A stretch of DNA of 64,000 bases from a virus, in the IMG/VR virus record IMGVR_UViG_3300043464_002317, positions 17,323 to 81,322 of that record; one strand, written 5' to 3'. Both the position numbers and the translations under genes were made by a program. Positions 19,948 through 57,620 of this stretch are shown piece by piece; position 1 is the first letter of the stretch; every line of letters begins with the position of its first letter. Below the pieces are notes generated by a model. That model was not told the DNA's origin and ran no database searches. It saw only the letters and a list, made by a program, of their open reading frames with translations.

Positions 19948-20794
19948 TGAGGTAGCCTCTCAACCTTATTTTAAAGATAATCCTCATCTTATTGATAAAG
20001 CGGCAATTTATAGATGGGTTACAATGGCTCTTGGTAATTTTGGTAGAAATATCATGCAAAAACAAGAAGCTGTTATTCATATTCAAAATTATAAAGGTCT
20101 GAAACCAAAAGGTTTTAAACAACTATCGTTAGCAATAAAATTAGATTTAGCTGGGATAAATGTAAATACAGAAGATAAATCTGTAATGCAAGGTTCTTTT
20201 ATGTGGAAAGAACGTATAGAAAAATACAACTTAGAAGATACTGTCGATTTTAATTGTGAAGAAACTTGCGAGAAAAAAACCTGTGAAAAAACTATAGTTG
20301 AAAATTTTTATCTTCGACCAGATGTTTTAGCAACAGCTCGCTACATAAACCCTCTTTACTTAAAAATAGGTGATGATTTACTAGGTTCATGCGACTCCGA
20401 TTGTGTAAACCGTTTTAATTATGACTCAAGATTTCAAATCAATATTAAAGGAGACTTTGTTAATGCAAACTTCAAAAACGGAGTTATTTACTTACGCTAT
20501 TGGGGATTACCAATAGATGATGATGGATTGCCATTAATCCCTGATACAGAAAATCATTCTGTTCAACACTATTTAGAATACCTTATAAAGAGAAAATTGC
20601 TTGAACAAGCAATGTGGAGCAAAGATGCAGTTAATTTACAAGCAATGTTCCAATTCACTGTGCAAGAAGAAAAAAATCTACTTGGAACAGCTTTAAGAGA
20701 CACAAGTCCTCTATCCATGAAAGCTTTGTGGAATGCAATAGATTTTAAAAGAAAAAATGTTTCTAAGTTTAATGTAAATCTTGGTAATTATTAA
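19913..20794 (+). CDS. Tail tubular/ring protein (Ttub-like)
   Basis: NFKNGVIYLRY.GLP.DDDGLPLIPD motif; synteny. Confidence 0.7.
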   Translation: MVELVSLENLISEVASQPYFKDNPHLIDKAAIYRWVTMALGNFGRNIMQKQEAVIHIQNYKGLKPKGFKQLSLAIKLDLAGINVNTEDKSVMQGSFMWKERIEKYNLEDTVDFNCEETCEKKTCEKTIVENFYLRPDVLATARYINPLYLKIGDDLLGSCDSDCVNRFNYDSRFQINIKGDFVNANFKNGVIYLRYWGLPIDDDGLPLIPDTENHSVQHYLEYLIKRKLLEQAMWSKDAVNLQAMFQFTVQEEKNLLGTALRDTSPLSMKALWNAIDFKRKNVSKFNVNLGNY

Positions 20795-23700
20795 TGGAAA
20801 AATCAAATCAAAATATAAATCAAGGTTTTAAAGGAATGAATAAAGACGTTCCTGTTGACACTAACAATCAACAAACCTATACCTATATGCTTAACGGTAA
20901 TATTGAAAGCATAGATGGTAATTCAGTAGGCATCCAAAATGAGCAATCAAATCTTTTATGTACGGTATTTCCTGAAGGTTATAAAGTAATAAATTATCAA
21001 TTAGATATTACAGACGATACAGTTTATTATTTTTTAGTAAACCCAGATACAAATTGTTCAGAAATAGGTAAAATAAGAAATATTCAAAATATATCTAATT
21101 TATCTGATACAGAGATATTATGTGGTTGCGGTATAAAAATGGTTTTAGCAGAAGGTCTCGAAACACAAGAGCCAACTCCAATATGCAACTATGAAACGGT
21201 AATAAACGACTGTGATTGCAACGAATTAGAAGAAGGTTTAAGATGTTTAAATTTTAGTATTAACTACCCAATAGATTCTGAGATAAAAGATGAAAAATGT
21301 GGTAAGGTACTTTATTTTACAGATAATTATAACGAACGAAGAAGATTAGAAGTAGATAGTTTAGAACAGTATTATACCAAATTAGAATACTGCGAAGAAG
21401 GAGACGAAGATTGTAACGATTGCGGAACGAAAGAAGTTCAAGTATGTTTGAATTGCACAAAAATGCTTGTACAAGCTCCTTTTTCTATTCCTTGTATAGA
21501 CGTAAAACCAATAGTTAACGGAGGAAATTTACGCCATGGACTTTATGTTTATTATGTAGCTTATTCTGATAAATTAGGTAATGAACTAACACGATATATG
21601 AGTGTTACAGGAGAAATTCCTGTAAAAGATTTAAACAGAAATATCTATCAACAAAATGAATTAGATGCAGTAACTAATTTAGGCATCAAACTCGAAGTAT
21701 CTAATTTAGATTTAAACTACAAATACTTTAAAATAGCTGTTGTAGAGAAAACATCTGTAGACGGAGCAGTGAGATACGTAACTGTAGGGACATATCCTAT
21801 TGGAGAAAATGTAGTTTTTCATACAGCAAACAATTTAACTACAGAAGAAAAACTCTCTCGTGAAAGATTATCTTTAGATTTTCCGCAATATAAAAAGAGT
21901 AAATATGTTCAGCAAATTGACAATAAACTCTTTTTTTCAGATTTAGAAGCACAAGATGAAATAAATCTGCAACCTGTTGTAAATTTAATAGGTCAATTTG
22001 CAAAATGGAGAACAGTTATTGCGGAAGAAGATATTTATAAGTCTTCTGATTTAGCTTCTAAGTATAGAAGTAATATGAGAGATGAAGTTATTCCATACGC
22101 CATACGATTCTTTACATCCGATGGATATGTAACAGCAAATTTCCCACTAATAAATAGAGTAGCTCAAGACCCTAATGATTTATACTTTGATAATACGCAC
22201 GCAGCAGACCCACAAGGCACTATAGAAACTCTTTTGGAAGAGTACAAAGATTCTCAAATACAACCAGAGAATACTTGGGAAAAAGATATTGTTTCAACTC
22301 TTGTAAATGGCAACTCAAATTGTGAGAGTTTAGAGCGTATTTACAAATGGCAATATTATAACACTGCAATAGTTGAAATAGATGGTTTTGAAACAGTATT
22401 TTCTTCAGAATACCCAGATTGTCTTACTGGAGAAACAGAAACATTAGAAGACCAAGATGTTACAAAATATTGTATTAGTCAGTATTTTACAGACCAAGTT
22501 GGTAAAATAATTATTTCAAATTTTGAAGAAGGAGAAATATTTACAACATTAGAAGAGTATATAGAAGACCATCAAAATGACCCAGACCCAGATGCTAATT
22601 TAGATTTTGCAGATAGCGGAATAACAACCATAAAAACATCAAATTATACTTCTAAAATTTGTTGTGTATGTGGAGAACAAGACTGTGATTTAGCTTGTGA
22701 AGACTCTTCTTGTATAGATTGCGAAGTTAGTGAAGATTGTTTCGTACCTTGCATAGATGATGTAGTAGAAGTAAATAGTTGTGATTTATCAACTTTATTT
22801 CCAGAAGGTATTTGCGGAGAACCTTGTTATGATGAATCTAAAAGTAAAGCTTCTTTTGTAAAACTACATAAATGTGAAAACGAAATTTCTATTGTAAAAA
22901 CCTACAAAGATTGCAACACTTACGATAGACAAGACGAACCTGTAAACTGTTATATATATCAACAGACAACAGGTGGTTTTACTAATCTAAATGTTTGTTG
23001 CCCAAATTGCTCTTCAGCAGAATGTACAAATGCAGATGGAGATAGTTGTGAAGAAACATCTCCTGGAGCTAATGATGGCGACCCATGTTGTGAATGGGAA
23101 TATGCTCAAGTTATGGACACTTCAGGAACTGGAAATTGTAGAAGTTCCATGGAAGTATACGACAGAGTAGCTAACGCTTACGGAGGTAAAACTTGTGCAA
23201 CAGCAAGCAATGTATTTCTCAATCAAATTTCAGCTTTAACTGCACATTTAATTCCTTATTACACAAATGCAGGAGCAACAGATTTAGTTACTTCAGTAGT
23301 AGCAGGATACAGTGGAAATTATGGGACTTTGGCAACAATAAAAAGTTGTAATGCAGGTATTGGTAAATCTCAACCAACAGGAGAAACAGCTATTTTTGAT
23401 ACAAACATACATAAAAATGCGCTGTGGTTTAAAGTAGAAAATATACCTACAGGAGTAGATAAAATAGTTTTAACTATATCAGATTTAACAAATACCCCTT
23501 CTGGAACAACAGGAAAAGACTGTTTAATGTACAGCTCATACCACAGATTTTCACTTTATACAACATGTGGAACTCCATTAGCAGGAGGATTAGTAGAAGA
23601 ACCAGCCGAATTAGTAAATGACGTTAATAATTCTATTGACCAACCAAAAGCAGGTGTTTTATGTATTGATACACTATCGTTAAGAGATGACCCAGATGTA

Positions 23701-26700
23701 CCTATCACAACAATATATATTGCAATAGATGCACCTTATTGGATAAACTCAGCTGATACTGATTATGGATATGTTGTAGGAACAGCATCTTGTTTTTCTA
23801 TTTTAGCTAAATCGGCAGATATTGAATCAGTTACTGTAGACTTAGGTACTGCAAGATTAGAATATGAAAAGAAGTGTGCATACACAGCTAAATGTGATTT
23901 ACAAATTTTTAAAGATGTAAAGTGCAATCCTGTTCCATTTTCAGAAGGAAAATTTGCATATTGGGAATCAATAGAAAAATATCCAGACAACTCTTATTTA
24001 TATAACAGTACTAACTTAGTTATAAATGAAGATGATATTCCATTAGATATACAAACAGAATTTGAAGATGTATTTACAAGTGATACTTTAGAAAATGGAG
24101 ATTATGAATTGAACTTAGAAACTACAGATTTTAGATGCAAACCTATTCGTCATTTTAAATTCCCAGATAGTTGTATATCTCCAGAACACGATGGTAATTT
24201 AGAATTTGGATTACAACCAAACTTTAATAAAAATAAAGTGTTCCCTATAGGACTTTATTTAGATAACAAAATTATCAATGCATTCTTAGATGTTGCAGCA
24301 AAACCAGAAAATGCTCTAATAACTCCAGAATTTAGAGATAAAATAGTCGGCTATGAAATCTTTATAGGTAACATGATGTTAAACAGAAGTATTATTGGAA
24401 AAGGTCTTTTGTACGATATGTATAAATACAAAGAAGATAATAAAGATGTTTTATTTTCTAACTTCCCATTCAATACTTTAGGTAATAATAAATTGCTCTA
24501 TAAAGATATGAGTAGAGCAGAATTTATTGACCACCCTTACAACTCAACAGAAAACGATAGGTTCTCTTTCTTATCTCCAGATTTTAGTTTTGACAGACCA
24601 AATTTACCTTTTGAAATGAAAATAGAACATTTCAAAATAGGAAATAGCCGAGGAAGATTTGCACAAGTAGAGGGACATTCTAAAATGGTTCTACTTACTA
24701 AGAATGCTGAAATTATTGCTGCCGTATTAGCAGGATTAGAAGAAGCACTTTTAATAGTTACAAAAACACTAGATAGCTTAGTTGTAGCAGGGACAGGAAC
24801 ATTTGGTATAGGCGTATCAATTGCAGCTATATCAGCTACATTAGCAGCAGAATTAGTAGCTTCGTTTACATATCGAGGAGCTCAAAAAACATTCCAATGG
24901 TTACAAATATTTGACCAAAACGGGATACCAAATAATTTCGCTTCTTATTACGCTTCAGAAGGTTTATACAATGGATTTTCTTGTAGCGGAACAGAAGGGA
25001 ATTTATTGCGAGGTCTACAAGGCAAACAATATATTCGTAATGGAAGATATTTATTCAATGAAAATTTTGAAGAAACTCGTATAAATAATTTTAACAGAGA
25101 AAGTTCTGTTTATTTGAACTTAGGAAAAGATTTTAAATTAGAATATCCGTCTCAAATAAAAACATACGATGATTCAAGAATTGATGAAGCTCCATCAGAA
25201 ACAGAAGGAGAAGAAAGAAAAACATCAACAGAACAAATAAGAAATATTGCATCTGCATATGTATCTTTAAAAAATTATACTCCAGCTCAACATGGAACTA
25301 TTAATTCTATCAGTTGGATAAGTACAAGTTACTGCGGTGATTTAACAAAAGAAAACACATGTGATACAGTTTTCGGTGGAGATACTTTTATTGTTAGACA
25401 TACAGTTAAAAGAAAGTTTCCTTTCTTTATAGCTCCGATGATTAATGGTATAAATTCATTACCATCTTTAACACCTTTCAGTTATTCTTTACAAAGAAAC
25501 ATAGGAGCACCACGTTACTACGTTGATTATAAAACAGGACAAGTACCATTACTAGGTTTAGTTTCTTTTCCACCAATAAAAAGCTATTATTACTTAGATA
25601 ATCAGGAAACTTCTTTCTTGTATGTAAAAGATACATCTAAGTTCTATTTATACGAATACGGTATAGCAAGTTTTATTTGCGAAACAAGAATAAACGAGAA
25701 TTTTAGATACGCTGAAAATAGCCGAGAAAGAGATTTTTGGGGTAATCAAAATGATTATATAGCTTGGACGCAAGAAGAAAATGTTCCTATATTTGAAGAT
25801 AATTATTATTTTTATAACAACACTTATAGTGCAGATAATTATATCTATGCATGGAGAGCATTAAGGGCTGACTTTGACCCAGTACAATCCGCTTGTCAAG
25901 TAAATCATTGGGACAGAACAATCTATAGTATAGAAGATAATAATGAGCAAGATAATATAGATAACTGGCGTATATTTTTACCAAATAATTTTAAGGATTT
26001 TGGTAATAAATATGGAACTTTTTACGGAGTTAAACCTATTGAATCTTTAAAGTTAGTAGCTCGATTTGAAAATGGCTTTGCTATTTATCCATCAACAGCT
26101 ACAGTACAAAGTTCGGCAGGTGATGTAACATTAGGAACAGCTGGTCTTTTCCAAGTAAAACCTTCAGATTTTGTTGTATCAGATTTAGGTTACGGAGGCA
26201 CACAACAATCAGCTTGGCTAAGTACAGAATACGGTCATTTTTGGGTAGATGCAAAACGAGGAAGAGTTCATAGATTAGAAGTACAAGCAGCAGGACAAGA
26301 AGAAATCTCTAAGAACGGAATGAAAAACTGGTTCAGAGAAAATTTACCTTTCAATATCTTGAAACAATTCCCTAACATGTCCGTAGAGATGTTAGACAAC
26401 CCTTATAAAGGAATAGGTATTGTTCTCGGTTGGGACAGCAGACACGAAAGAGTCTTCTTAACTAAGAAAGATGTAAAATTAAAACAACAATATTTAAATA
26501 ATGTTGTTATAGAAGGATTAGATTTTTATCTAGTAACTATAGAAGACGAAGAAGAAGTAAAAACATTAATACAACCTTCAGATGAAACTTACTTTACAGA
26601 TACAAGCTGGACTTTAGCTTACAGCCCAAATCTTAAAACTTGGATTTCATACTATACATTTAAACCTAATTATTTCGTACCGTTCCAACATTATTTTCAA

Positions 26701-27300
26701 ACAGGTATAAACTGGGGAGCTAATACAGGACTATGGTCGCACTTACTAACAGATAACACTTCTTTCCAAGTTTTTTACGGTAACTTAGAACCTTGGAAAT
26801 TAGAAATACCTTATAAGAGCGATGTGTATTCTAAATATGGAGAAGATATAAACTATTCTTTAGAAACATTACGTTATGAAAATGAAAACGATTTTAAACA
26901 TATTGTTGCTAACTTCAACCATGTAGTTATCTATAACAATCAAGAAAGCACAGGGAAATTAAATTTAATAAGACAAATTCCAAATAATGCTAGATTTATA
27001 TGTAATTATCCTAAATACAATGTTTATAACTCAGTAGATATTTTAGCGACTAACGAATACCAAGATTGGAGTTTTAATTATCTATTTGACAATATTAAAA
27101 ACAATACAAACATTCCTATTTGGATTCATACTCCGAGTGCAGACGATAAAGTTTTAAATCAAAATGCGCACGATTATAGACCAACATTTAAAAACCTACT
27201 AAGAGGTAAATATTTCTTGGCACGATTTACTCAAGAAACAGAGTCAAGAATTAAATTCATCTACAAGTGGAGCAGTTTACAAAATAAATTGTTTGATTAA
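20794..27300 (+). CDS. Tail stabilisation/muzzle protein (Tstab-like)
   Basis: 2168 aa; KGMNKD, LYFTDNYN, MRDEV.PYAIRF, IRHFKFPD, FGGDTFI, FWVDAKRG, SWTLAYS, WISYYTF.P motifs. Confidence 0.75.
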   Translation: MEKSNQNINQGFKGMNKDVPVDTNNQQTYTYMLNGNIESIDGNSVGIQNEQSNLLCTVFPEGYKVINYQLDITDDTVYYFLVNPDTNCSEIGKIRNIQNISNLSDTEILCGCGIKMVLAEGLETQEPTPICNYETVINDCDCNELEEGLRCLNFSINYPIDSEIKDEKCGKVLYFTDNYNERRRLEVDSLEQYYTKLEYCEEGDEDCNDCGTKEVQVCLNCTKMLVQAPFSIPCIDVKPIVNGGNLRHGLYVYYVAYSDKLGNELTRYMSVTGEIPVKDLNRNIYQQNELDAVTNLGIKLEVSNLDLNYKYFKIAVVEKTSVDGAVRYVTVGTYPIGENVVFHTANNLTTEEKLSRERLSLDFPQYKKSKYVQQIDNKLFFSDLEAQDEINLQPVVNLIGQFAKWRTVIAEEDIYKSSDLASKYRSNMRDEVIPYAIRFFTSDGYVTANFPLINRVAQDPNDLYFDNTHAADPQGTIETLLEEYKDSQIQPENTWEKDIVSTLVNGNSNCESLERIYKWQYYNTAIVEIDGFETVFSSEYPDCLTGETETLEDQDVTKYCISQYFTDQVGKIIISNFEEGEIFTTLEEYIEDHQNDPDPDANLDFADSGITTIKTSNYTSKICCVCGEQDCDLACEDSSCIDCEVSEDCFVPCIDDVVEVNSCDLSTLFPEGICGEPCYDESKSKASFVKLHKCENEISIVKTYKDCNTYDRQDEPVNCYIYQQTTGGFTNLNVCCPNCSSAECTNADGDSCEETSPGANDGDPCCEWEYAQVMDTSGTGNCRSSMEVYDRVANAYGGKTCATASNVFLNQISALTAHLIPYYTNAGATDLVTSVVAGYSGNYGTLATIKSCNAGIGKSQPTGETAIFDTNIHKNALWFKVENIPTGVDKIVLTISDLTNTPSGTTGKDCLMYSSYHRFSLYTTCGTPLAGGLVEEPAELVNDVNNSIDQPKAGVLCIDTLSLRDDPDVPITTIYIAIDAPYWINSADTDYGYVVGTASCFSILAKSADIESVTVDLGTARLEYEKKCAYTAKCDLQIFKDVKCNPVPFSEGKFAYWESIEKYPDNSYLYNSTNLVINEDDIPLDIQTEFEDVFTSDTLENGDYELNLETTDFRCKPIRHFKFPDSCISPEHDGNLEFGLQPNFNKNKVFPIGLYLDNKIINAFLDVAAKPENALITPEFRDKIVGYEIFIGNMMLNRSIIGKGLLYDMYKYKEDNKDVLFSNFPFNTLGNNKLLYKDMSRAEFIDHPYNSTENDRFSFLSPDFSFDRPNLPFEMKIEHFKIGNSRGRFAQVEGHSKMVLLTKNAEIIAAVLAGLEEALLIVTKTLDSLVVAGTGTFGIGVSIAAISATLAAELVASFTYRGAQKTFQWLQIFDQNGIPNNFASYYASEGLYNGFSCSGTEGNLLRGLQGKQYIRNGRYLFNENFEETRINNFNRESSVYLNLGKDFKLEYPSQIKTYDDSRIDEAPSETEGEERKTSTEQIRNIASAYVSLKNYTPAQHGTINSISWISTSYCGDLTKENTCDTVFGGDTFIVRHTVKRKFPFFIAPMINGINSLPSLTPFSYSLQRNIGAPRYYVDYKTGQVPLLGLVSFPPIKSYYYLDNQETSFLYVKDTSKFYLYEYGIASFICETRINENFRYAENSRERDFWGNQNDYIAWTQEENVPIFEDNYYFYNNTYSADNYIYAWRALRADFDPVQSACQVNHWDRTIYSIEDNNEQDNIDNWRIFLPNNFKDFGNKYGTFYGVKPIESLKLVARFENGFAIYPSTATVQSSAGDVTLGTAGLFQVKPSDFVVSDLGYGGTQQSAWLSTEYGHFWVDAKRGRVHRLEVQAAGQEEISKNGMKNWFRENLPFNILKQFPNMSVEMLDNPYKGIGIVLGWDSRHERVFLTKKDVKLKQQYLNNVVIEGLDFYLVTIEDEEEVKTLIQPSDETYFTDTSWTLAYSPNLKTWISYYTFKPNYFVPFQHYFQTGINWGANTGLWSHLLTDNTSFQVFYGNLEPWKLEIPYKSDVYSKYGEDINYSLETLRYENENDFKHIVANFNHVVIYNNQESTGKLNLIRQIPNNARFICNYPKYNVYNSVDILATNEYQDWSFNYLFDNIKNNTNIPIWIHTPSADDKVLNQNAHDYRPTFKNLLRGKYFLARFTQETESRIKFIYKWSSLQNKLFD

Positions 27301-30300
27301 TGAAAAATAATAAATTAATAAGGTTTAGTTTAGAGCAAAATGGAGGGTCTGCACCAAAGTTAATGCAAGAAGGAAGATTTTCTAATTATAATTGGAAAGA
27401 AAATAGAGAATATAAAAAAAACCCAGCTAATTTAAATAGTAGAGGTGGACTTGATGTAGGTGTTTCAAAAAATTTACCATTAGGATTTAGAAGTTCTGCT
27501 GGTGTAGAGTTTGATGAAGGTAAAGTTAATTACAGAGGAGGTTTAGGATATAATAATAAAGGTCTTGATATAAACACTAATTATAATAGCAGCGGCAAAC
27601 TTAATGCGAGTGTTAATTATGATAGCCCTGTTGGTCTTAAAGCAGGTTTTAGATATAGTGATAATAAAGGAGAAAAAACTTATAGTGGAAATTTAGGTTA
27701 TAGTGGTGAAAAAATACCTATAGGTTTAAATACTGGTTATACACATACATCTGAAGGACATAATGCAAATGCTGACCTTAACTTTAATACAAAAAATATT
27801 AATGGAAATTTTGGGTACGAGTATAATCAAGAAGGTAATAAAAATTCATTTAATGCAGGAGTAAATATTCCATTTGCTAATAAAAAAGGAAACATAGGCA
27901 TCAACAGTAAGTATAATATAGGAGATAAACAACCATCTGTTAATATAGGAACTACTTTTAAATTTAAAAACGGAGGGGATGTAAGCGATAAAAAAGACAC
28001 ATTATCTAAATTAAAAAAAGCTTTATCTTTAAGAGAAAACTTAGGTAATCTTGATACTGAACAAGGATATAATACTCCATTAAAACAAGTTTTAAGAACT
28101 GCAATAGGATTAGAAGGAAAAGATTATAGTAATAAACCTATGTCATCTATTGCTAGAGAGCAAGATGCTTTTAGAATGTATTTAGGATTACCTTCTAGAA
28201 CAGGAGCATTTGAACAAACAGGTTCTAATAAATATAGAATAAGGGATTATGGTCAGTTGTATCCTGAAACTATGCCTTCAGATGAAGCAGTATTATATTC
28301 TAATAAAATAAATAAGGCTGTTGAAATGGATAAATCTCCTGTAGATTTAAACAAACTAGTAGAGTTAACTCCTTATGCGGATATACTTATGGGCACCCAT
28401 AATGTTGTTAAAGATAAAGATGCTAAAGGAGAATATTTAAAATACTACGATAGATTTGATTTTGACCCTACAAGATACGCAAATCAATTTATTGATAGAA
28501 ATGTTAACCCAACTATTGGTAAATATTTAAAAAAAGCAACTCCTGTATTAGATGAATTAGAGAGTCTAATATTTAACCCTTTTGAACTAGAAGATAAAGT
28601 TTATTACAACCCTAAAACAAAATTACGTTCAGATATTATTTTACAACAAAATAGACAAAGAGTAGTTCCAGGACAACCAATAGCTATCCCAGCAGATTTT
28701 CAAAGTGGTGGAGAAATGATAAAAAGAAATCTTTGGGATAATATAGGGAGTACTTTTAAGTTTCAAAATGCAGGGCAAAAAAACTCAACATATACTTGGA
28801 GTACACAAGAAGCATCAAAACCAAAAGGGACAGATGTAAAAGCTCCAAATGACACAAATATTACCAAAACAGATGTATTAACTGATAAAGCTCAATTAGA
28901 CGAGTACCGAGATTTTCTAAAATCTAAATATAAAAAACAAGACGAAGAATATAATAATCTACCTCTTGTAAAAATGCAATCTTTATATAGCGATAAAATA
29001 GAAAACTTCTCACCAGAGACTAGGTTTGGAGAAATCCCAGAAAATCCTACAACAGTAAATTTAACACAAGGTAGATTTAATACAGCAAAAGTACCAACCT
29101 ATGTTATTGACCAAGCAATAGAATCAGCAAAAAGAAATAATAGACCAGTAGGAGAATTATTAGCTCTTATAGGAAGAGAATCTACATTTGGTCAACAAAA
29201 AAGTGACATGAGAGGTACTGCAAATAAAAAAGACTTAATTTCTGGTTGGAATCTAGCTGAAAAATATGAACCTTACGATTACATGCGTTTTTTAGCAGAT
29301 AAAGGTGTTGAAGGTATTATTGCTGAAAAAGATAGATTAAGAACATATTATGACTTTGACCCAAATGGAGGAAGAGAACAAGTTTTTGATTATGTCAATA
29401 GAAACCCAAAATTACTTGAAGAGTATAAGAAAAAATTAGAATCTCAACCTCAAATAGGAAATCAAGATTATTTTGATTTAGCTTATGAATTTCTCAAAGA
29501 CAAAGGAATTAAGAAGTACAATCCAGGAGACCCAAAATATGAAAGTATGTATAACGAAGATTTTCAAACATTGGAAAAAGAACCTGCATTACAAGAATAT
29601 TTAAAAAGCAAAGGAGTTTCATTTTCAAATACAAAATATCAACAAGGAGGCAACATTAATATAAATTCATTACAAATGCAAAACAACAATAAATTACAAA
29701 CACCTTCAGAAGCCGTTTATTCTGCATTAAGTAACTCGTACAATATAAATACAGATATGGGTTTACCAGAACTAACTACTTTAGAGCAATTTAAAAACGG
29801 AGGTTATAAAGTTATTCGCACTAACGAAAGAAAAGGTAAGACTCATAAAGTCATAGCACCAGATGGAAAAGTGCAATATTTTGGCGATGCAAAATTAGGA
29901 CAACATCCAAGAGACCCAGAAAGAAAAAAAGCTTTCTATGCTCGCCATAAAAAGAATTTAGAAAAAAACCCTTTATTCAGAGCATTCGCACGAGAAACTT
30001 GGCAAGATGGAGGAGAATTAAATAAACTAGGAGTAGAAAATTCTTTGTGGAATAATATCAGAGAAAATAGAGGCAGCGGAAGAAAACCTACAAAAGAAAT
30101 GTTAGAACAAGAAAAGAAAATTAAAGCTAAAGAAATGCAATCTGGTGGTAGCGTACAAGATAAAGAAATGGTAGATGGTATTGCAAATATATTATCACAA
30201 ATCAAAGACAAATCAAATAGAAAACAAGTAGCAAAAAATATGATAAAAGACTTTAACAACGAAAATGTAAATTTTAATTACGATAATTTTTTACAAGCTA

Positions 30301-31646
30301 TTAATCTTGATAGATTAAAAAACGGAGGAGGAATAGATTTAAACGAACAATTTATAGTAGGAAACTATCAAGGAGGAGGTATAAATTTAGACCCATCTAA
30401 AAAAGGTACTTTTAAAGTGCAAGCTACGAGAATGGGAGTATCTGTTCAAGAAGCAGCCAATAAAATTTTATCTGCGCCAGAAGGTGAATATTCTCCAGAA
30501 ATGAGACGTAAAGCTAATTTTGCTCGTAATTTTGCAAAACAAGATGGAGGCGTGATGGACGATATGGTATATATTAACGGAGCTTGGTATGATAAAACTA
30601 CAATGCAAAACGGAGGTAATAAACAACCAGCCTATTCTTGGAGTACACAACAAGCACCATCCCAAGCAAACACAAGTATACGAATCCCTACAACTTCAAA
30701 AAACAGAGGAATCATCGCAAGACCGCTAGCAGATTTTAATAAAGAATTAGAAGAAAAAAGACAAAAAAATATTAAATTAGAACAAGAAAGAAAAGCAGCT
30801 ATAAATAGAGCTAATTTAGCTCAAAGCACACAAGGATTTCCTACAACACCAGAAGAATTAGCTGCTCAAGTAGCAGTAGAAGAAAAATTTACTATACCTT
30901 ATACGTCTCCGCTTGCACCTTTAAATTATTTTAATGTTTTTAAAGGGATTGGTAGTATGTCTAATGAGTTAGCATATGCCCCATTAAATGTTAAAAGAGG
31001 TGAATATTTAAAAGCTGCTACAGCTGTAGCGCAACCACTATTATTAGGACATATTGCAGGAGCACATGGAAATATAGCGGCTAATTTAGTAAATCCTGTT
31101 GCAGGTGTAAAAAATGCTGTTACATCGCTTGCAAAAGGAGAAATAATGCCAGCAGCACAAGTTGCAGCTAAAAATTTTCTTAAAAAGTATTCTTCAGAAA
31201 ATCCAGATTTAATTGATTTACCGTATGCAATAGATAAAAGATTCGTAACCACCAAAGAAGTTACACCAACAGCACAACAACCACTTGTAGGTCAAAACGG
31301 AGGTCTTACGCCTAAAAAAGCCAGAGAAATTTTGCATGATGGCACAGTACATGGAAAACCAATAACTGAGCAACAACGCAAATATTTTGGCTATATTTCG
31401 TCTAAAAAACAAGACGGTGGAGCTGTAACTATGACGGGTTACAGACAAGATTCTCCAGATGTAAATAACGCATTTAACTATATACCAAGCAAGAATATTT
31501 CTATGGGTAACGTAGTTGGCGATGTAAATGCCGTGGATAGATTTGGGAATGTAACTACTATGAAACCTAACGAAAACTATGTTTTTCCTAACGGAGGAGT
31601 ATTAGAATATAGACCTAAAAAAGGAAGAGTAAAATTCTCTATGTAA
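27300..31646 (+). CDS. Modular virion cargo protein segmented by xxGG motifs
   Basis: 1448 aa, no Cys; about 14 [FYMWLKGE][QK]xGG-type motifs separating unrelated modules. Confidence 0.6.
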   Translation: MKNNKLIRFSLEQNGGSAPKLMQEGRFSNYNWKENREYKKNPANLNSRGGLDVGVSKNLPLGFRSSAGVEFDEGKVNYRGGLGYNNKGLDINTNYNSSGKLNASVNYDSPVGLKAGFRYSDNKGEKTYSGNLGYSGEKIPIGLNTGYTHTSEGHNANADLNFNTKNINGNFGYEYNQEGNKNSFNAGVNIPFANKKGNIGINSKYNIGDKQPSVNIGTTFKFKNGGDVSDKKDTLSKLKKALSLRENLGNLDTEQGYNTPLKQVLRTAIGLEGKDYSNKPMSSIAREQDAFRMYLGLPSRTGAFEQTGSNKYRIRDYGQLYPETMPSDEAVLYSNKINKAVEMDKSPVDLNKLVELTPYADILMGTHNVVKDKDAKGEYLKYYDRFDFDPTRYANQFIDRNVNPTIGKYLKKATPVLDELESLIFNPFELEDKVYYNPKTKLRSDIILQQNRQRVVPGQPIAIPADFQSGGEMIKRNLWDNIGSTFKFQNAGQKNSTYTWSTQEASKPKGTDVKAPNDTNITKTDVLTDKAQLDEYRDFLKSKYKKQDEEYNNLPLVKMQSLYSDKIENFSPETRFGEIPENPTTVNLTQGRFNTAKVPTYVIDQAIESAKRNNRPVGELLALIGRESTFGQQKSDMRGTANKKDLISGWNLAEKYEPYDYMRFLADKGVEGIIAEKDRLRTYYDFDPNGGREQVFDYVNRNPKLLEEYKKKLESQPQIGNQDYFDLAYEFLKDKGIKKYNPGDPKYESMYNEDFQTLEKEPALQEYLKSKGVSFSNTKYQQGGNININSLQMQNNNKLQTPSEAVYSALSNSYNINTDMGLPELTTLEQFKNGGYKVIRTNERKGKTHKVIAPDGKVQYFGDAKLGQHPRDPERKKAFYARHKKNLEKNPLFRAFARETWQDGGELNKLGVENSLWNNIRENRGSGRKPTKEMLEQEKKIKAKEMQSGGSVQDKEMVDGIANILSQIKDKSNRKQVAKNMIKDFNNENVNFNYDNFLQAINLDRLKNGGGIDLNEQFIVGNYQGGGINLDPSKKGTFKVQATRMGVSVQEAANKILSAPEGEYSPEMRRKANFARNFAKQDGGVMDDMVYINGAWYDKTTMQNGGNKQPAYSWSTQQAPSQANTSIRIPTTSKNRGIIARPLADFNKELEEKRQKNIKLEQERKAAINRANLAQSTQGFPTTPEELAAQVAVEEKFTIPYTSPLAPLNYFNVFKGIGSMSNELAYAPLNVKRGEYLKAATAVAQPLLLGHIAGAHGNIAANLVNPVAGVKNAVTSLAKGEIMPAAQVAAKNFLKKYSSENPDLIDLPYAIDKRFVTTKEVTPTAQQPLVGQNGGLTPKKAREILHDGTVHGKPITEQQRKYFGYISSKKQDGGAVTMTGYRQDSPDVNNAFNYIPSKNISMGNVVGDVNAVDRFGNVTTMKPNENYVFPNGGVLEYRPKKGRVKFSM

Positions 31647-31695
31647 ACAAATATTGTTATAAATTATGAAGTTCATAACTTTTTTTGTATTTTTG
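31644..31695 (+). promoter_or_regulatory. Putative late promoter
   Basis: TAAAC-N7-GTTAT (31644-31660) and TATTTTTG (31688-31695). Confidence 0.65.
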
Positions 31696-31715
31696 TCACC
31701 TCTCATTATAACATC

Positions 31716-34700
31716 ATGAAAATCAAACGCAAAGTAAAATCTAAATTACCTAAGTATCAAAATAATCTTACAGATAATACTAATTTGTCAGGACAATCTC
31801 AAACAATAGATTTAAATCCAAACAATAGTGCTTTAGGTAATAATATGAGTTTAAGACAACAAGAAAATATTTCTACTCTTTCGCCTTTAACAACTCAAAG
31901 TTTATCACAAGCTAATCAATATACTCAACAACCTAACTTAGTTAAACAGCCCCAGCCTGCCATGGCTGGAACTACTAAAAAAGAACCTCAAGTATTACCT
32001 ATTTGGATGGATAGCCCATTTGGAACAAACGAAGGTTTTACGTATGCTGGGAGAGGATTTGGAGCACTTAAACCTATTTCTAAAAATGAAAATTTAACAC
32101 CAGAACAAAAGAAAGATTATAAAGCATTAGCAATAACAGAAGGAATTTCTGGGACTCTTGCAGGAGGGTTCGGAATGGCACGAGATTTTATGAGTGGTTT
32201 TTCTTCTAAAAGAGAAAATCAATTTCTTTCGCAAGAAGCTGTTGAAAATCAATTACGAGCAAATAGGCAATATAACAGAGGAGAACAAGATATAAATGCA
32301 AATAGAGGTTATGTTAATTCACAAAATGGTGGTATATTTCAAGCAGGAGGTGAAGTACCAATAGAAGAAATGTTAAGTGACAGAAGCGTTAAAGGATTAC
32401 CAGAAGAAATGGAAGGTGTCGCTAATGCGGAACTTGAATCTAAAGAATTTTTAATATCTCAAGGAGATATAAGCCGAGTGGAAGGAAAACGTCATTCAGA
32501 AGGAGGAGAGAAATTTGCTCTGAAAGGAGGTGATAAAATAATATCTGATAATATTCTTATAGGAAAACAACTTGATAAGTTTTTTGATGATATGGGATTA
32601 AATACAAACCCTAAAAACTCTTTTGCTACAGTAATGGAAAAATTCCGTAAAAAAATCGGAATGACTGAACTTCAAAAAGAGCAAGAAGTATATTTCAAAA
32701 AACTTGAAAAAAATACTAAGCTACCTGATTCCGAAACAAAAACTAAAAATGAAGAGTTTATATCTTCTCAAATTAATGAGATAGAAGAACAAAAAGAAGA
32801 TTTAAAAGCATTAGAATCATTTTTTGCAGATGTAGTTTATAATAAACAAGAAGATAGAAAAAAAGAAGGAGGCAATATCTATAAAAATAAAGTAATTGAC
32901 CAACCAATGCCAGAAGACGATTCTTATAATGGAGAAGTAATCATGGCTGCAAATGGAACTAAAATTCCTGTATATTTAGAAGATGGAGGTATTTTTGTAG
33001 ATTCAGCAGATGATAATATAGCTCTTAAAAATTGGGCTAAAAATAAAGGCTTTACTACAGAAGAGCAAATGTATGATTATCTTAGTCGTAAACAACAAGG
33101 TGGCGAACAAGAAAATCAATTAATGCAAGAAATTGCTTCAGCTCTTCAACAAGGTGCATCTCCAGAAGAAATTGTACAAGCTTTAGTTCAACAAGGAGCT
33201 TCAGAAGAACAAGCAGCAGCAATGATAGAACAAGTGACCATGCAAATGCAACAGCAACCTATGATGCAACAAGGGGGCGAGCAAGAAAATCAATTAATGC
33301 AAGAAATAGCCTCAGCTCTTCAACAAGGCGCATCACCAGAAGAAGTAGTGAGTGCTCTAATACAACAAGGAGCTTCAGAAGAACAAGCAATGGCAATAGT
33401 TGAGCAAGTAACTGCTCAAATGCAACAGCAACCTATGATGCAACAAGGTGGTGAACAAGATGTTATGACATACATATCAGACTCATTGCAACAAGGAGTA
33501 GACCCACAAGAAATTATGACTTCATTAGTTGAACAAGGGTTACAAGAAGAAGAGGTTACAGCAGCTATTCAACAAGTTATGGCACAAATGCAACAACCTA
33601 ATGAACAAATGATGCGTAACGGAGGAATGAAACTACCTATGTATGATAACGGGGGAGGAAAAGATACACCCCCTTACGATGAAAAAGACGCTTATACTGA
33701 AGAAGGTGTTGCAAGACTAAACAGGTTTCTTAAAGAATATAATCTAAAAGAATTACCTAAAACAGCTACAAAATCAGAAGTAAAGGATGCAGCAAGTGCA
33801 ATGCAAAAAAAAGCTCTACAAATAAATCCTGAACTAGTTACTCACTACCTATTAAATCAATCTCATCAGGCTGCTAATAAATTTACATCTGTCTTAGATA
33901 AAAAGTATGGTTCAGCTGCCGATTATAAAAAAGATTGGACACAAGCTGAAAAACAAGCTTACGCAAGAGAAAAATATAAAACTGGAGATTTAAAATTTGA
34001 TGAATTAGGAGATGCTTTTAATGATGCCTTATGGTGGTATCGTTCAGTATCTAATGATGTAAAAGCAGTGCCAAGACCAGAATATGAAAAATTTCTAAAA
34101 GATAATGCAGATAAACTTATAAAGCAAGCAGATGCAAGTGGTAATCCTTTGTACTATCTTTATAAAGGAGATGGTCAATACGAAGCTTTAACACCATACG
34201 ATGTAGAAACAACAAAAAAAGAAAAAGAGAAAATAGAGCAAGGAAAACAAGGCGACATGAAATCTTTTCAAGCAGCGGCTCAACAAAGAGCCGCAGGTTT
34301 TACACCAATTACGCCAAGATATAGAGAAATGCCAACTTCTATGCTACTACCTGGATATTTTCAAGAAACTCCAGAAGATGTTGTAGCTCCAAAAGTATCA
34401 CCTACAGAACAAATAGCTGCAATCACTGGAAGCGCAAGAAATGTTGCTGGACTTATGTCTGGAACTTCTGGTGCAGAAAAAATGGCTAATTTAGCATATC
34501 TACAAGCACAAGAAGCTGAACAAATTGATAAAGCTATTTCTGGAACTAATAGAGCTAACTTAGAATCTGAATTTAGCGCAAGACAAGCAAATAGAGCTAA
34601 CAGACAAGGAGTTCAAACAAAAAATATCTCTTATGCAATACCTTACGTAGATAAAGCTAATCTTGCACAAATAAATACCGAACAAGAATGGCAAAAATAC

Positions 34701-34910
34701 TTTGCAGAAATGAGTGGGGACAGATTAAACAATATTAGAGAACAAAGAGCTTTACAAACTTACGCAAGCATGACACCTAATTATAGATATGATGCTGCAA
34801 CAGGAATTACTTATGGAGCTGATGGAAAGCCTATAATTAATGAACAATTAGACCCAATAGCAATGGCAATTCTTGCTCAACAGCAACAACAAAATACTCC
34901 GAGAAAATAA
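31716..34910 (+). CDS. Virion cargo protein with xxGG motifs and Gln-rich repeats
   Basis: 1064 aa, no Cys; ANAELESKE...GKRHSEGG segment; several xxGG motifs; glycine-rich hydrophobic helix near the N-terminus. Confidence 0.6.
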   Translation: MKIKRKVKSKLPKYQNNLTDNTNLSGQSQTIDLNPNNSALGNNMSLRQQENISTLSPLTTQSLSQANQYTQQPNLVKQPQPAMAGTTKKEPQVLPIWMDSPFGTNEGFTYAGRGFGALKPISKNENLTPEQKKDYKALAITEGISGTLAGGFGMARDFMSGFSSKRENQFLSQEAVENQLRANRQYNRGEQDINANRGYVNSQNGGIFQAGGEVPIEEMLSDRSVKGLPEEMEGVANAELESKEFLISQGDISRVEGKRHSEGGEKFALKGGDKIISDNILIGKQLDKFFDDMGLNTNPKNSFATVMEKFRKKIGMTELQKEQEVYFKKLEKNTKLPDSETKTKNEEFISSQINEIEEQKEDLKALESFFADVVYNKQEDRKKEGGNIYKNKVIDQPMPEDDSYNGEVIMAANGTKIPVYLEDGGIFVDSADDNIALKNWAKNKGFTTEEQMYDYLSRKQQGGEQENQLMQEIASALQQGASPEEIVQALVQQGASEEQAAAMIEQVTMQMQQQPMMQQGGEQENQLMQEIASALQQGASPEEVVSALIQQGASEEQAMAIVEQVTAQMQQQPMMQQGGEQDVMTYISDSLQQGVDPQEIMTSLVEQGLQEEEVTAAIQQVMAQMQQPNEQMMRNGGMKLPMYDNGGGKDTPPYDEKDAYTEEGVARLNRFLKEYNLKELPKTATKSEVKDAASAMQKKALQINPELVTHYLLNQSHQAANKFTSVLDKKYGSAADYKKDWTQAEKQAYAREKYKTGDLKFDELGDAFNDALWWYRSVSNDVKAVPRPEYEKFLKDNADKLIKQADASGNPLYYLYKGDGQYEALTPYDVETTKKEKEKIEQGKQGDMKSFQAAAQQRAAGFTPITPRYREMPTSMLLPGYFQETPEDVVAPKVSPTEQIAAITGSARNVAGLMSGTSGAEKMANLAYLQAQEAEQIDKAISGTNRANLESEFSARQANRANRQGVQTKNISYAIPYVDKANLAQINTEQEWQKYFAEMSGDRLNNIREQRALQTYASMTPNYRYDAATGITYGADGKPIINEQLDPIAMAILAQQQQQNTPRK
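33093..33600 (+). repeat. Three 174-bp (58-aa) tandem repeats
   Basis: QQGGEQ...ALQQGASPEE...QQGASEEQA...QMQQQPMM units start at 33093, 33267 and 33441 (third more diverged). Confidence 0.9.
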
Positions 34911-55534: not shown

Positions 55535-55565
55535 AAAAAGCCTCCGAAATGGAGGCTTATTTTTT
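55535..55565. terminator. Bidirectional terminator at the convergence of the two genome arms
   Basis: AAAAAGCCTCC-gaaat-GGAGGCTTATTTTTT, with A and T tracts on either side. Confidence 0.85.
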
Positions 55566-55890: not shown

Positions 55891-55891
55891 A

Positions 55892-56899: not shown

Positions 56900-56903
56900 G
56901 TTA

Positions 56904-56911
56904 CAAATATA
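56904..56911 (-). promoter_or_regulatory. Bacteroidota-type -7 promoter box
   Basis: TATATTTG on the minus strand 4 nt upstream of the helicase ATG. Confidence 0.65.
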
Positions 56912-56934
56912 CAAAAAAATTTTTAAAATAAATA

Positions 56935-56961
56935 AAAAACGGGAGAAAAAATCTCCCGTTT
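56935..56961 (-). terminator. Rho-independent terminator
   Basis: Minus strand AAACGGGAGA-ttttt-TCTCCCGTTTTTT downstream of the 57604-56969 gene. Confidence 0.75.
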
Positions 56962-56968
56962 GCAAGCT

Positions 56969-57604: not shown

Positions 57605-57620
57605 TTTTGTTTGTTTTTGT

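What the first reader, a model, noticed from the sequence alone, without database searches (positions are those of the whole stretch)
27300..31646. Polyprotein-like cargo: unrelated modules strung together by a recurring xxGG motif
Seen: EQNGG (27333), FKNGG (27963), FQSGG (28698), FQNAG (28761), YQQGG (29637), FKNGG (29790), WQDGG (30000), MQSGG (30135), LKNGG (30315), YQGGG (30366), KQDGG (30537), MQNGG (30603), GQNGG (31290), KQDGG (31407). Each falls at a boundary between compositionally distinct segments of about 15-290 aa, and the codons differ, so the signal is at protein level. Several segments look like stand-alone small basic phage proteins (KGKTHKV...FGD...RKKAFYARH; NSLWNNIR...KPTKEM; PSKKGTF...RRKANFARNFAK; KKAREILHDGTVHGKPIT). 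Established: Gly-Gly-directed cleavage matures adenovirus and ASFV core proteins. Inference: a plug-in platform in which modules carrying this tag are packaged and released by proteolysis, or the tag is a multivalent capsid-docking signal.
Basis: partly seen in the sequence, partly recalled or inferred. Interest (0 to 1): 0.85.

Follow-up and report, generated by a model that had tools for sequence, protein, structure and literature searches.

The report
Gly-Gly jointed cassette cargo protein
A large protein that this crAss-like phage probably carries in its particle and injects is a chain of small swappable modules joined by one short conserved peptide ending in Gly-Gly; the pattern is real, but nothing shows that the joints are cut.

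Summary
All 14 listed motifs are at the stated coordinates. [KQ][NSDQG]GG occurs 13 times in ORF 27300-31646 (0.5 expected), 4 times in the next ORF and 0 times in 35 other ORFs. The ORF follows a crassvirus-type muzzle gene. Homologues share only single blocks of it, in other orders and with other partners, and the block ends lie on the GG sites. Inter-motif segments also exist as free genes: 60 of 62 free copies of the 45-aa module have no GG, while 18 of 18 fused copies are followed by a GG joint. So the plug-in platform reading is supported.

Proteolytic release is not shown. In AlphaFold models the joints are flexible breaks at helix ends. In crAss001 one joint is ordered and continuous with the portal-bound domain. 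No protease family that I tested was found. The motif is not a tag that every module needs.

The best reading is a standard flexible connector at which cassettes are exchanged; cutting stays open. I found no description in print. This scan has noted the same pattern in at least 21 other genomes.

The parts
20794..27300 (+). Muzzle protein gene (2168 aa), directly upstream of the finding
   Evidence: Pfam crAss_MUZ, E=1.5e-21. phrog_37948, 1080 bits. 36.6-37% identity to Cellulophaga phages phi17:2 and phi4:1, and a match to the 'Muzzle protein' of csAssE-Sib.
27300..31646 (+). ORF1, 1448 aa: the jointed cassette cargo protein (the finding)
27300..27347 (+). Basic N-terminal leader, aa 1-16, ending in joint EQNGG
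   Evidence: In 43 of 72 homologues the first GG ends within 40 residues of the start.
27348..27977 (+). Module A, aa 17-226: disordered to about aa 50, then 13 antiparallel strands (aa 52-222), ending in joint FKNGG
   Evidence: AF2 mean pLDDT 67.5, core 78-90. The best Foldseek hits are all membrane beta-barrels (VDAC1 3.6e-4, TOM40 8.7e-4, porins), but TM-scores are only 0.3-0.48. HSP block 20-226/233.
27978..28712 (+). Module B, aa 227-471, ending in joint FQSGG; absent from the 84%-identical relative P0005
   Evidence: HSP block 221/222-473/477 at 70-85% identity in about 24 otherwise different proteins. Indel in P0005. No Pfam match.
27942..27977 (+). Left copy of the 36-nt direct repeat that encodes the joint (N-I-G-T-T-F-K-F-K-N-G-G)
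   Evidence: 30 of 36 nt identical to 28740-28775. P0005 has a single copy.
28740..28775 (+).
28776..29651 (+). Module C, aa 493-784, ending in joint YQQGG; function unknown
   Evidence: HSP block 481/492-782. No match in Pfam or in PDB sequences.
29805..30014 (+). Module D, aa 836-905: three strands plus three helices, between joints FKNGG and WQDGG
   Evidence: AF2 pLDDT 90-96. In 26 viral loci it is always embedded and always flanked by GG on both sides. Free 78-aa form P0077.
30015..30149 (+). Module E, aa 906-950: 45-aa basic two-helix module ending in joint MQSGG
   Evidence: The free 43-53-aa gene occurs in 62 of 80 viral loci. AF2.
30150..30332 (+). Module F, aa 951-1011: three helices ending in joint LKNGGG
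   Evidence: AF2 helices 127-142, 146-161 and 169-182 of the model.
30381..30551 (+). Module G, aa 1028-1084: basic three-helix module between joints YQGGG and KQDGG
   Evidence: 52% identity to the Dulem virus 41 homologue of gp45 (E=6e-17) and a match to a free 75-aa gene of cr10_1. Weak match to crAss001 gp45 373-419 (E=0.009). AF2 pLDDT 88-96.
30618..31304 (+). Module H, aa 1107-1335, between joints MQNGG and GQNGG
   Evidence: HSP blocks 1103/1147-1270/1296 at 24-34% identity, found at other positions in homologues.
31305..31421 (+). Module I, aa 1336-1374: small basic module ending in joint KQDGG
   Evidence: HSP block 1332-1374/1376. It lies at the C-terminus of P0006, P0007 and P0015 and at the N-terminus of P0073.
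31422..31646 (+). C-terminal tail, aa 1375-1448, with the last joint FPNGG 15 residues before the end
   Evidence: In 38 of 72 homologues the last GG lies within 20 residues of the end.
31716..34910 (+). ORF2, 1064 aa: second jointed cargo-type protein, related to phi17:2 gp041 (annotated as a virion structural protein)
   Evidence: 13 GG sites against 5.3 expected. phrog_36695, E=1.4e-30. phi17:2 gp041 has 14 GG against 6.9 expected, p=0.008.
33093..33460 (+). Tandem duplication of a 58-aa cassette in ORF2; each unit starts at its QQGG joint
   Evidence: TRF: period 174, 2.1 copies, 84% matches. A third, more diverged copy follows.
43962..50264 (+). Neighbouring 2100-aa polyvalent cargo-type protein with a weak zincin-like motif (HEIQH at aa 735); it has no joints of the [KQ][NSDQG]GG type
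   Evidence: GNAT, LPD23 (7.3e-6) and DUF6782 (E=0.002, below the cut-off). 28-29% identity to internal virion proteins of F116/H66-like phages. 0 motifs.

Best explanation
ORF1 is a virion cargo (ejection) protein of a crAss-like phage and belongs to the class called polyvalent proteins. It is a string of at least nine independently folding cassettes. These are a beta-barrel-like module, two larger modules of unknown function, several small basic helical modules, and short spacers. The cassettes are joined by one conserved joint: an aromatic residue or Met, then Q, K or A, then any residue, then Gly-Gly. The first half of the joint is the end of the last helix or strand of the upstream cassette. 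The Gly-Gly is a flexible break. I think the joint most likely works, uncut in the virion, as a standard connector. It lets each cassette fold and unfold on its own while the chain is packed and threaded through portal and tail. It is also the place where cassettes are inserted, deleted, duplicated and swapped in frame. Shown here: the motif excess, the match between joints and homology breakpoints, the free-gene forms, an indel flanked by a repeated joint, and the predicted structure. Inferred: packaging, ejection and the hinge role. Open: whether the joints are also cut later, for example after ejection.
For: The context is a crassvirus-type virion module: crAss_MUZ and CrAss_Ring_1 and CrAss_Ring_2. 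Homologues carry modules D, E and G in one chain with crAss_CARG1, ART-PolyVal, SET, YkuD or M23 domains. Modules occur in other orders and with other partners, and 86 of 154 HSP ends lie on GG sites against 20.5 expected. The motif belongs to junctions: 60 of 62 free copies of module E have no GG and the other 2 are cut by contig ends. All 18 fused copies are followed by a joint, and the 4 internal ones are also preceded by one. In L115 modules D and G share a single joint. Cassette gain or loss happens at joints. Module B is missing in the 84%-identical P0005, between two copies of a 36-nt repeat that encodes the joint (30 of 36 nt identical). ORF2 has a tandem cassette duplication in register with QQGG. 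The Dulem gp45 homologue lacks about 160 aa of GG-delimited segments that crAss001 gp45 has. The joint codons are unusually uniform, AAC-GGA-GGN. In the AF2 model of aa 826-1110 the modules are well folded. At four joints in that stretch (D|E, E|F, after F, after G) a helix ends 1-4 residues before the GG, and pLDDT dips at or just after the GG. In crAss001 gp45 the resolved pieces start at or just after joints, and A425-F-G-G428 is ordered together with the portal-bound domain.
Against: A passive hinge does not explain the sequence preference. In 3,178 GG sites of 211 proteins, position -3 is W (6.3x), Y (4.7x), M (4.5x), F (2.9x) or H (2.8x), while L, I and V are depleted (0.3-0.4x). That looks like recognition by a partner. 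The three giant multidomain cargo-type proteins next door have no such joints, so joints are not a general need of ejected multidomain proteins. The free form of module D (P0077) keeps GG at both ends. Packaging of ORF1 itself is not shown. ORF1 has no CARG1 domain. ORF2 against gp45 and ORF3 against gp46 give no significant BLASTP match. The evidence for an uncut joint is one joint in one distant phage, and it comes from the paper's text only.
Confidence: 0.45

Rival explanations
1. The joints are protease sites. The chain is a true polyprotein that is cut after Gly-Gly. The cut happens either in the head during maturation or in the host after ejection. The protease is a co-packaged zincin-like domain, an unrecognised phage protease or a host enzyme, and the cut releases the small basic modules.
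For: There is an extended preference on both sides of the GG: -3 W/Y/M/F/H, -2 Q/A/E, +1 Y/M/E, +2 I/M/V. Joints lie near both termini: the first GG within 40 residues of the start in 43 of 72 proteins, the last within 20 of the end in 38 of 72. Inter-joint segments have the same extent as free genes. The joints are flexible and exposed in the models. Neighbouring cargo-type proteins hold weak HExxH domains. Drobysheva et al. note a zincin-like protease domain in a virion protein of crAss-like phages and a fused 'polyprotein, likely cleaved' (passages). Iyer et al. predict that polyvalent proteins are processed by zincin-like peptidases (passages).
Against: At E<=0.1 there was no hit to C5, C48, C39, S78, M23 or MPTase-PolyVal in this record. 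C39, C48, S78, M23 and MPTase-PolyVal were also absent from 3 of 3 near-complete related records. No peptidase is among the 25 of 32 Pfam families listed for 55 ORFs. The two HExxH hits are below the Pfam cut-offs. crAss001 residues 425-428 are ordered and continuous with the downstream domain. Pro follows the GG in 3.5% of strict joints. The words 'cleav' and 'proteoly' occur 0 times in the crAss001 structure paper.
Confidence: 0.3
2. The joint is a docking or packaging handle. Repeated copies bind a site on the portal, the capsid interior or the scaffold, so that the chain is built into the procapsid. It may mimic a motif of the scaffolding protein.
For: The preference for aromatic residues or Met with aliphatic residues depleted suggests a binding pocket. 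In the scaffold-like protein between the portal and capsid genes, K-N-G-G makes up 4 of only 10 invariant columns in 15 sequences of 21-36% identity. crAss001 gp45 pieces bound to the tail barrel and to the portal begin at joints. Conserved short peptides also recur at the termini of homologues.
Against: 60 of 62 free copies of module E lack the motif, and copies of E at the N-terminus have no leader joint. The scaffold motif does not follow the flavour of the cargo joints. crAss001 gp31 has no GG at that place. Record G001 has A-D-G-G in the scaffold-like protein but K-N-G-G and E-E-G-G in its cargo. pLDDT at the joints is low.
Confidence: 0.13
3. The signal lies mainly in the nucleic acid. 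The joint codons (AAC-GGA-GGN, which contain GGAGG) serve as microhomology for cassette recombination or as a translational pause site, and the peptide is a by-product.
For: The codons are uniform at joints: AAC in 8 of 11, p=0.0043; GGA first in 23 of 29 against 40 of 82, p=0.0047. A 36-nt direct repeat flanks the module B indel. The tandem repeat in ORF2 is in register with the joint.
Against: The peptide is kept across homologues down to about 25% identity, with different residues around it and other compositions. Fifteen bases with variable codons are little homology. The codon bias rests on small numbers.
Confidence: 0.1
4. It is a chance or compositional artefact of a Gly- and Asn-rich protein.
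For: Gly makes up 8.4% of the protein, and the pattern was defined after the fact.
Against: 13 observed against 0.5 expected, with 0 of 2000 shuffles reaching 13. 54.5% of 3,178 GG sites have W, Y, F or M at -3, against 12.7% expected. The joints coincide with homology breakpoints.
Confidence: 0.01

Closest known systems
Polyvalent proteins of phages and conjugative elements (Iyer, Burroughs, Anand, de Souza, Aravind 2017, PMC5512222; passages read)
   Same: They are large proteins, delivered with the virion, that string many unrelated domains together and show extensive mosaicism. Homologues of ORF1 carry ART-PolyVal, and the neighbouring ORF carries LPD23. That paper predicts processing by zincin-like peptidases.
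   Different: The paper has 0 occurrences of 'linker', 'glycine' or 'Gly-Gly', so no conserved joint is described there. ORF1's own modules match no Pfam family at significance.
Cargo protein C1 (gp45) of Bacteroides phage crAss001 (Bayfield et al. 2023, PMC10172136; PDB 7QOG; Pfam PF25725 crAss_CARG1)
   Same: The gene lies right after the muzzle gene. gp45 has the same kind of GG sites, at residues 20, 209, 263, 332, 373, 427, 562, 821 and 828. It also has a module G-like stretch at 373-419 (firm for the Dulem homologue). The authors propose that it is stored partly in the tail and ejected unfolded.
   Different: ORF1 has no CARG1 domain and no significant overall similarity to gp45. In gp45 the aromatic residue is mostly at -1 (A-Y/F-G-G), whereas here it is at -3. 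The paper does not discuss the motif or cleavage.
Gly-Gly-directed processing of core proteins by adenovirus protease and ASFV pS273R (recalled, not from a call)
   Same: A short site ending in Gly-Gly with a hydrophobic residue upstream recurs in small basic proteins packed with the genome.
   Different: No clan CE protease was found. Here the hydrophobic residue lies one position further upstream and is aromatic or Met rather than aliphatic. Cleavage is not shown.
T4 internal proteins with a capsid-targeting sequence, cut by the prohead protease (recalled)
   Same: Small proteins are packed in the head and injected. A short N-terminal leader ends at a conserved site that the scaffold core proteins share.
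   Different: There is no prohead protease gene between the portal and capsid genes. The T4 site ends in Glu. The modules here are fused in one chain.
Ejection proteins of podoviruses (T7 gp14-16, P22 gp7/16/20), as cited in PMC10172136
   Same: Internal proteins leave before the DNA and build a channel across the cell envelope. Module A's beta-barrel-like prediction would fit an outer-membrane role.
   Different: There is no sequence relationship. Those proteins are not cassette arrays with a common joint.

Membership tests
Polyvalent proteins (Iyer et al. 2017) | Many unrelated domains in one polypeptide | tested here: met
   At least 9 blocks that recur independently in other proteins. AF2 shows separate folded modules.
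Polyvalent proteins (Iyer et al. 2017) | Domains with disparate enzymatic or nucleic-acid-binding activities, including hallmark PolyVal/LPD domains | tested here: inconclusive
   ORF1 has no significant Pfam match. Homologues carry ART-PolyVal, SET, YkuD, M23 and lysozyme. The neighbouring ORF carries LPD23 and GNAT.
Polyvalent proteins (Iyer et al. 2017) | Encoded by a phage or plasmid in a context of proteins delivered with the DNA | tested here: met
   The gene lies between the muzzle gene and the giant cargo-type ORFs.
Crassvirus cargo protein 1 (gp45, PF25725) | crAss_CARG1 portal-binding domain | tested here: not met
   No Pfam family at E<=0.01 in ORF1 or for CARG1 in ORF2. The domain is present in homologues such as P0036.
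Crassvirus cargo protein 1 (gp45, PF25725) | Gene immediately downstream of the muzzle gene | tested here: met
   The ORF1 start overlaps the muzzle stop codon at 27300.
Crassvirus cargo protein 1 (gp45, PF25725) | Present in purified virions | not testable with these tools
   The phage is uncultured. The phi17:2 gp041 relative of ORF2 is annotated as a virion structural protein.
GG-processed viral polyproteins (adenovirus or ASFV type) | Clan CE cysteine protease encoded by the virus | tested here: not met
   Peptidase_C5 and Peptidase_C48 gave 0 hits in the own record, which is 54% complete. C48 gave 0 of 3 in near-complete relatives.
GG-processed viral polyproteins (adenovirus or ASFV type) | Site consensus: aliphatic residue, any residue, G-G, then the cut (recalled) | tested here: not met
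   At -2, the position the recalled consensus requires to be aliphatic, L is 0.3x, I 0.6x and M 0.8x. The enriched hydrophobic residue sits one position further upstream, at -3, and is W/Y/M/F/H, with L, I and V at 0.3-0.4x there.
GG-processed viral polyproteins (adenovirus or ASFV type) | Demonstrated cleavage products | not testable with these tools
   This needs proteomics. The one structural datum, crAss001 residues 425-428, argues against a cut there.
Double-glycine leader peptides with a C39 peptidase | C39 peptidase domain in the genome | tested here: not met
   0 hits in the own record and 0 of 3 in near-complete relatives.
T4-type capsid-targeted internal proteins | Prohead protease gene in the head module | tested here: not met
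   Only an acidic 369-aa scaffold-like ORF lies between the portal and capsid genes. Peptidase_S78 gave 0 hits. The T4 gp21 family itself was not searched.

The most novel reading that the evidence does not exclude
The aromatic-x-x-Gly-Gly joint is the recognition site of a processing or loading system of crAss-like phages that has not yet been identified. The cargo chains and the scaffold share it: the scaffold's most conserved element is K-N-G-G. Jointed cargo would then be true polyproteins that are delivered as one thread and cut into free small basic proteins, either in the head or after injection. This would be a phage counterpart of adenovirus core-protein maturation. It would also offer another reading of why pieces of crAss001 gp45 are seen in both tail and capsid.
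Probability: 0.22. Interest if true: 0.85.

Novelty: new variant of a known kind. Interest (0 to 1): 0.6.

Why it matters
Cargo and polyvalent proteins are the largest and least understood genes of crAss-like phages, which are among the most abundant viruses known. A conserved joint gives a simple rule for cutting these giant dark proteins into their real units for annotation, folding and function tests. The D-G stretch alone has 1,939 related cluster representatives. The joint also marks natural in-frame insertion points where phages add and drop payload modules. That matters for understanding the arms race between phage and host, and for ordinary phage engineering in laboratory strains. If the joints turn out to be cut, it would reveal a maturation system that has not been described in tailed phages.

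Tried and rejected
I tried Pfam and PHROGs on the whole ORF1 and Pfam on ten of its segments at E<=1. Nothing was significant; there was only a weak phrog_7595 match. I had guessed that module C is a lytic transglycosylase because of an E-S-T-F stretch. Pfam and PDB sequence searches found nothing, so I dropped that guess.

Foldseek on the four-module model gave no hit at E<=0.001. BLASTP of ORF2 against gp45 and of ORF3 against gp46 was not significant, so I claim only that they occupy equivalent positions.

I considered spontaneous Asn-Gly or Asp-Gly chemistry as the reason for the motif. I rejected it because N and D at -1 are only 1.5x and 2.0x enriched and many other residues occur there.

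I considered a plain helix C-cap. AF2 supports helix ends at the joints. But the depletion of L, I and V at -3 does not fit a generic hydrophobic cap, so I keep it only as part of the picture.

I tested whether the scaffold motif and the flavour of the cargo joints vary together. The scaffold profile matched in only 1 of 5 long viral records, and the three or four cases I saw do not co-vary.

Scans of metagenome contigs and viral contigs with the whole ORF1 found no relatives, so P0005 is the only close variant I could compare, and only as protein. The ESM Atlas match of module A to attacin and gloverin (0.83-0.84) is below the level worth trusting.

The gel-band assignment of gp45 in PMC6235969 (Fig. 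3a and supplement) and the peptide map in PMC10172136 (Extended Data Fig. 3 and Table 3) could bear directly on whether the joints are cut. I could not see them, because figures are not held and supplements are closed.

Full report
WHAT IS THERE. The window is part of an 81,322-base linear virus record with an estimated completeness of 54%. Its G+C content is about 31%. The head and tail genes are of the crassvirus type. In order they are: a terminase that contains an intein, a portal gene, an acidic 369-aa scaffold-like ORF, a capsid-like ORF, fibre genes and ring proteins. Pfam finds CrAss_Ring_1 (2.1e-18) and CrAss_Ring_2 (1.4e-21). Next comes a 2168-aa muzzle protein (crAss_MUZ, 1.5e-21). 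By the muzzle protein, the nearest cultured relatives are Cellulophaga phages phi17:2 and phi4:1, with 36.6-37% identity over 84-87% of the query. Their record taxonomy gives the genus Lightbulbvirus. The finding is the ORF that starts on the muzzle stop codon (27300-31646, 1448 aa). After it come ORFs of 1064, 809, 2207, 2100 and 1735 aa. In crAss001 this position holds the cargo proteins gp45 and gp46 and the RNA-polymerase-related giants (passages of PMC10172136).

THE OBSERVATION. The pattern [KQ][NSDQG]GG occurs 13 times in ORF1, against 0.5 in shuffles. It occurs 4 times in ORF2, against 0.34, and never in the 35 other ORFs tested. Plain GG is in excess in both ORFs. More telling, the ends of BLASTP blocks shared with 70 homologues fall on the GG sites: 86 of 154 ends lie within 5 residues, against 20.5 expected, and 8 of 2000 circular shifts reach that number.

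MODULES AND SHUFFLING. A search of 5.8 billion proteins gave 72 hits, the query itself included. Most share only 5-20% of ORF1, often at 70-85% identity. They carry very different Pfam domains elsewhere in the chain: ART-PolyVal, SET, YkuD, M23, lysozyme, CHAP, DUF6321, DUF3597 and crAss_CARG1. The shared blocks define modules A (aa 20-226), B (221-477), C (about 490-782), D (830-910), E (913-954), F (947-1010), G (1024-1089), H (1103-1296) and I (1332-1374). In the homologues these stand in other orders. In P0056, E comes before D. In P0006 the order is H, B, I. The D-G stretch alone has 1,939 related cluster representatives at E<=0.001 and 202 at E<=1e-30. Module D sits anywhere from residue 8 to residue 1498 of its host protein.

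FREE GENES. Module E exists as a free gene of 43-53 aa in 62 of 80 viral loci. Module D exists as a 78-aa protein (P0077). Module G exists as a 75-aa gene between the portal and capsid genes of the crassvirus cr10_1. The free forms show what the motif is tied to. Of the 62 free copies of E, 60 contain no GG, and the 2 that do are cut off by contig ends. Of 103 short proteins with the E core, 1 contains GG. All 18 fused copies are followed by a joint. The 4 internal copies are also preceded by one, and the 14 N-terminal copies start directly with the module and have no leader. In locus L115, modules D and G abut and share one joint. So the motif belongs to junctions. It is not a tag that every module must carry. 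The free form of D does keep GG at both ends, so for some modules the glycines are part of the unit.

THE JOINT AS A SEQUENCE. I examined 211 related proteins (221,290 aa), taken from the P0005-P0075 and P0217-P0357 sets and limited to those of 150 aa or more. They hold 3,178 scorable GG sites, and GG is 1.63 times more frequent than the Gly content predicts. Of these sites, 54.5% have W, Y, F or M at position -3, against 12.7% expected. The enrichments at -3 are W 6.3x, Y 4.7x, M 4.5x, F 2.9x and H 2.8x, while L, I and V are at 0.3-0.4x. At -2 the enriched residues are Q 3.0x, A 2.7x and E 2.0x. At +1 they are Y 3.0x and M 2.3x, and at +2 they are I and M at 3.0x and V at 2.5x. Pro at +1 is only mildly depleted, at 0.64x. 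Lineages differ in flavour. This phage uses F/Y/M-K/Q-N/S/D-G-G. crAss001 and Dulem virus 41 mostly use A-Y/F-G-G.

THE JOINT AS STRUCTURE. I ran AlphaFold2 on aa 826-1110 with a 60-row alignment (mean pLDDT 73.6). It gives four well-folded small modules: D with pLDDT 90-96, G with 88-96, and E and F, both helical. At four joints in this stretch a helix ends 1-4 residues before the GG. pLDDT dips at or just after the GG, and it is below 50 at model residues 86-88, 184-206 and 257-261. Module A is predicted as 13 antiparallel strands after a disordered leader of 50 residues. Its best Foldseek matches are all membrane beta-barrels: VDAC1 at 3.6e-4, TOM40, porins and ushers. The TM-scores are only 0.3-0.48, so I treat this as a lead. 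If it holds, the chain starts with a part that could enter the host outer membrane. That is inference.

JOINTS AND CASSETTE TURNOVER. The one close relative I could find, P0005 (84% identical), lacks module B. ORF1 carries the joint twice, at window 27942-27977 and 28740-28775, with 30 of 36 bases identical, and module B lies between the two copies. P0005 has one hybrid copy. That is what recombination between the repeated joints would leave, or what an insertion that duplicated the joint would make. ORF2 holds a tandem duplication of a 58-aa cassette whose unit begins with the codons for Q-Q-G-G (33093-33460, 84% matches). Among true gp45 homologues (Dulem against crAss001, E=3e-63), crAss001 has about 160 extra residues made of three GG-delimited segments. 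The joint codons are more uniform than the genome's codon usage predicts.

IS IT CUT? I could not show cleavage. Points in favour are the extended site preference, the joints close to both termini, and the match in extent between inter-joint segments and free genes. There are also weak HExxH domains in the two neighbouring giants: M78-like with E=0.0023 and DUF6782 with E=0.002, both below the Pfam cut-offs. The published remarks fit as well. They say that crAss-like virion proteins include a zincin-like protease domain and that fused forms are 'likely cleaved'. They also say that polyvalent proteins are probably processed by zincin-like peptidases.

Points against are as follows. Six protease families gave no hit in this record. 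Five of them gave no hit in three records that are 96-100% complete and carry jointed cargo with module D. There is no protease gene between the portal and capsid genes. In crAss001 the resolved portal-bound domain of gp45 is given as residues 425-552. By the gp45 sequence this domain begins with A-F-G-G (425-428) and ends before the next joint at 562-563. A cut after G428 would separate those four residues from the domain, so that joint looks uncut in the virion. The other resolved piece, residues 214-245, starts four residues after the joint at 209-210. The authors themselves model gp45 as one chain that spans tail and capsid. This is one joint in a distant phage, taken from the text only.

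THE SCAFFOLD. The 369-aa acidic ORF between the portal and capsid genes lies mostly upstream of the window. It has 18 homologues besides its own cluster. I aligned 15 sequences of 21-36% identity. Only 10 columns are invariant, and four of them are K-N-G-G. cr10_1 has R-N-G-G at the matching place. One long viral record has A-D-G-G. crAss001 gp31 has no GG there. This may be a conserved turn between helices and nothing more. It may also be a link between scaffold and cargo. I could not decide between the two.

COMPARISON WITH WHAT IS KNOWN, AND NOVELTY. The class is known: polyvalent proteins and crassvirus cargo. The conserved joint is not described in the papers I could search. The polyvalent-protein paper contains none of the words 'linker', 'glycine' or 'Gly-Gly'. 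The crAss001 paper has no 'cleav' or 'proteoly'. Two full-text searches for Gly-Gly or double-glycine motifs together with phage or crAss terms found nothing relevant. Earlier notes of this scan report the same seams in at least 21 other genomes and also leave the question of cutting open. They agree with my reading, which I had formed before I looked at them. They are not independent evidence.

VERDICT. The plug-in platform reading is supported, proteolysis is unproven, and an obligatory docking tag is contradicted. My odds are: an uncut standard connector or hinge 0.45, a cleavage site 0.30, a docking handle 0.13, and mainly a nucleic-acid signal 0.10.

Noticed in passing
L005:16564-17673 (own record, upstream of the window; its last 351 bases are window 1-351): Acidic 369-aa scaffold-like ORF between the portal and capsid genes. 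K-N-G-G accounts for 4 of only 10 invariant columns across 15 homologues of 21-36% identity. cr10_1 has R-N-G-G at the matching place. crAss001 gp31 has no GG there.
   Followed up: partly
L005:10470-13712 (own record, upstream of the window): The large terminase gene (1080 aa) is interrupted by an intein with a LAGLIDADG homing endonuclease: Intein_splicing 2.8e-14 and LAGLIDADG_3 7.8e-16.
   Followed up: no
window 27348-27977: Module A of ORF1 is predicted as a 13-strand beta meander. Its best structural matches are all membrane beta-barrels, and it ends in an F-x-F strand, as outer-membrane proteins do (that last point is recalled). It may be an outer-membrane-inserting head of the ejected chain.
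   Followed up: partly
window 33093-33460, and on to about 33620: ORF2 has three tandem 58-aa Gln-rich cassettes with a weak UBA-like match (E=0.0014). Each starts at a QQGG joint.
   Followed up: partly
window 43962-50264: A 2100-aa polyvalent protein with two GNAT acetyltransferase regions, LPD23 and a weak metallopeptidase-like HEIQH region. That region resembles internal virion proteins of Pseudomonas phages of the F116/H66 type.
   Followed up: partly
loci L007-L086 (viral contigs): The free 45-aa form of module E is a very conserved small basic protein: 24 invariant positions among 16 aligned proteins. It is present in at least 147 viral-contig stretches, and its function is unknown.
   Followed up: partly
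homologues P0006-P0075: Besides the joints, short conserved peptides recur at the chain ends. A G-W-L-D-type or D-W-E-I-type peptide stands near the N-terminus and again at the extreme C-terminus of the same protein.
   Followed up: no
window 27300-34910: The joint codons are unusually uniform (AAC-GGA-GGN), so most joints contain GGAGG, a sequence like a Shine-Dalgarno site. I do not know whether this matters for translation or recombination.
   Followed up: partly
window 55564-64000, minus strand: The strand switches at about 55.5 kb (GC skew changes sign). The record also holds RecA, PhoH, helicase and dGTP-diphosphohydrolase genes, but I did not place them on the map, so I cannot say that they lie in this minus-strand block.
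   Followed up: no
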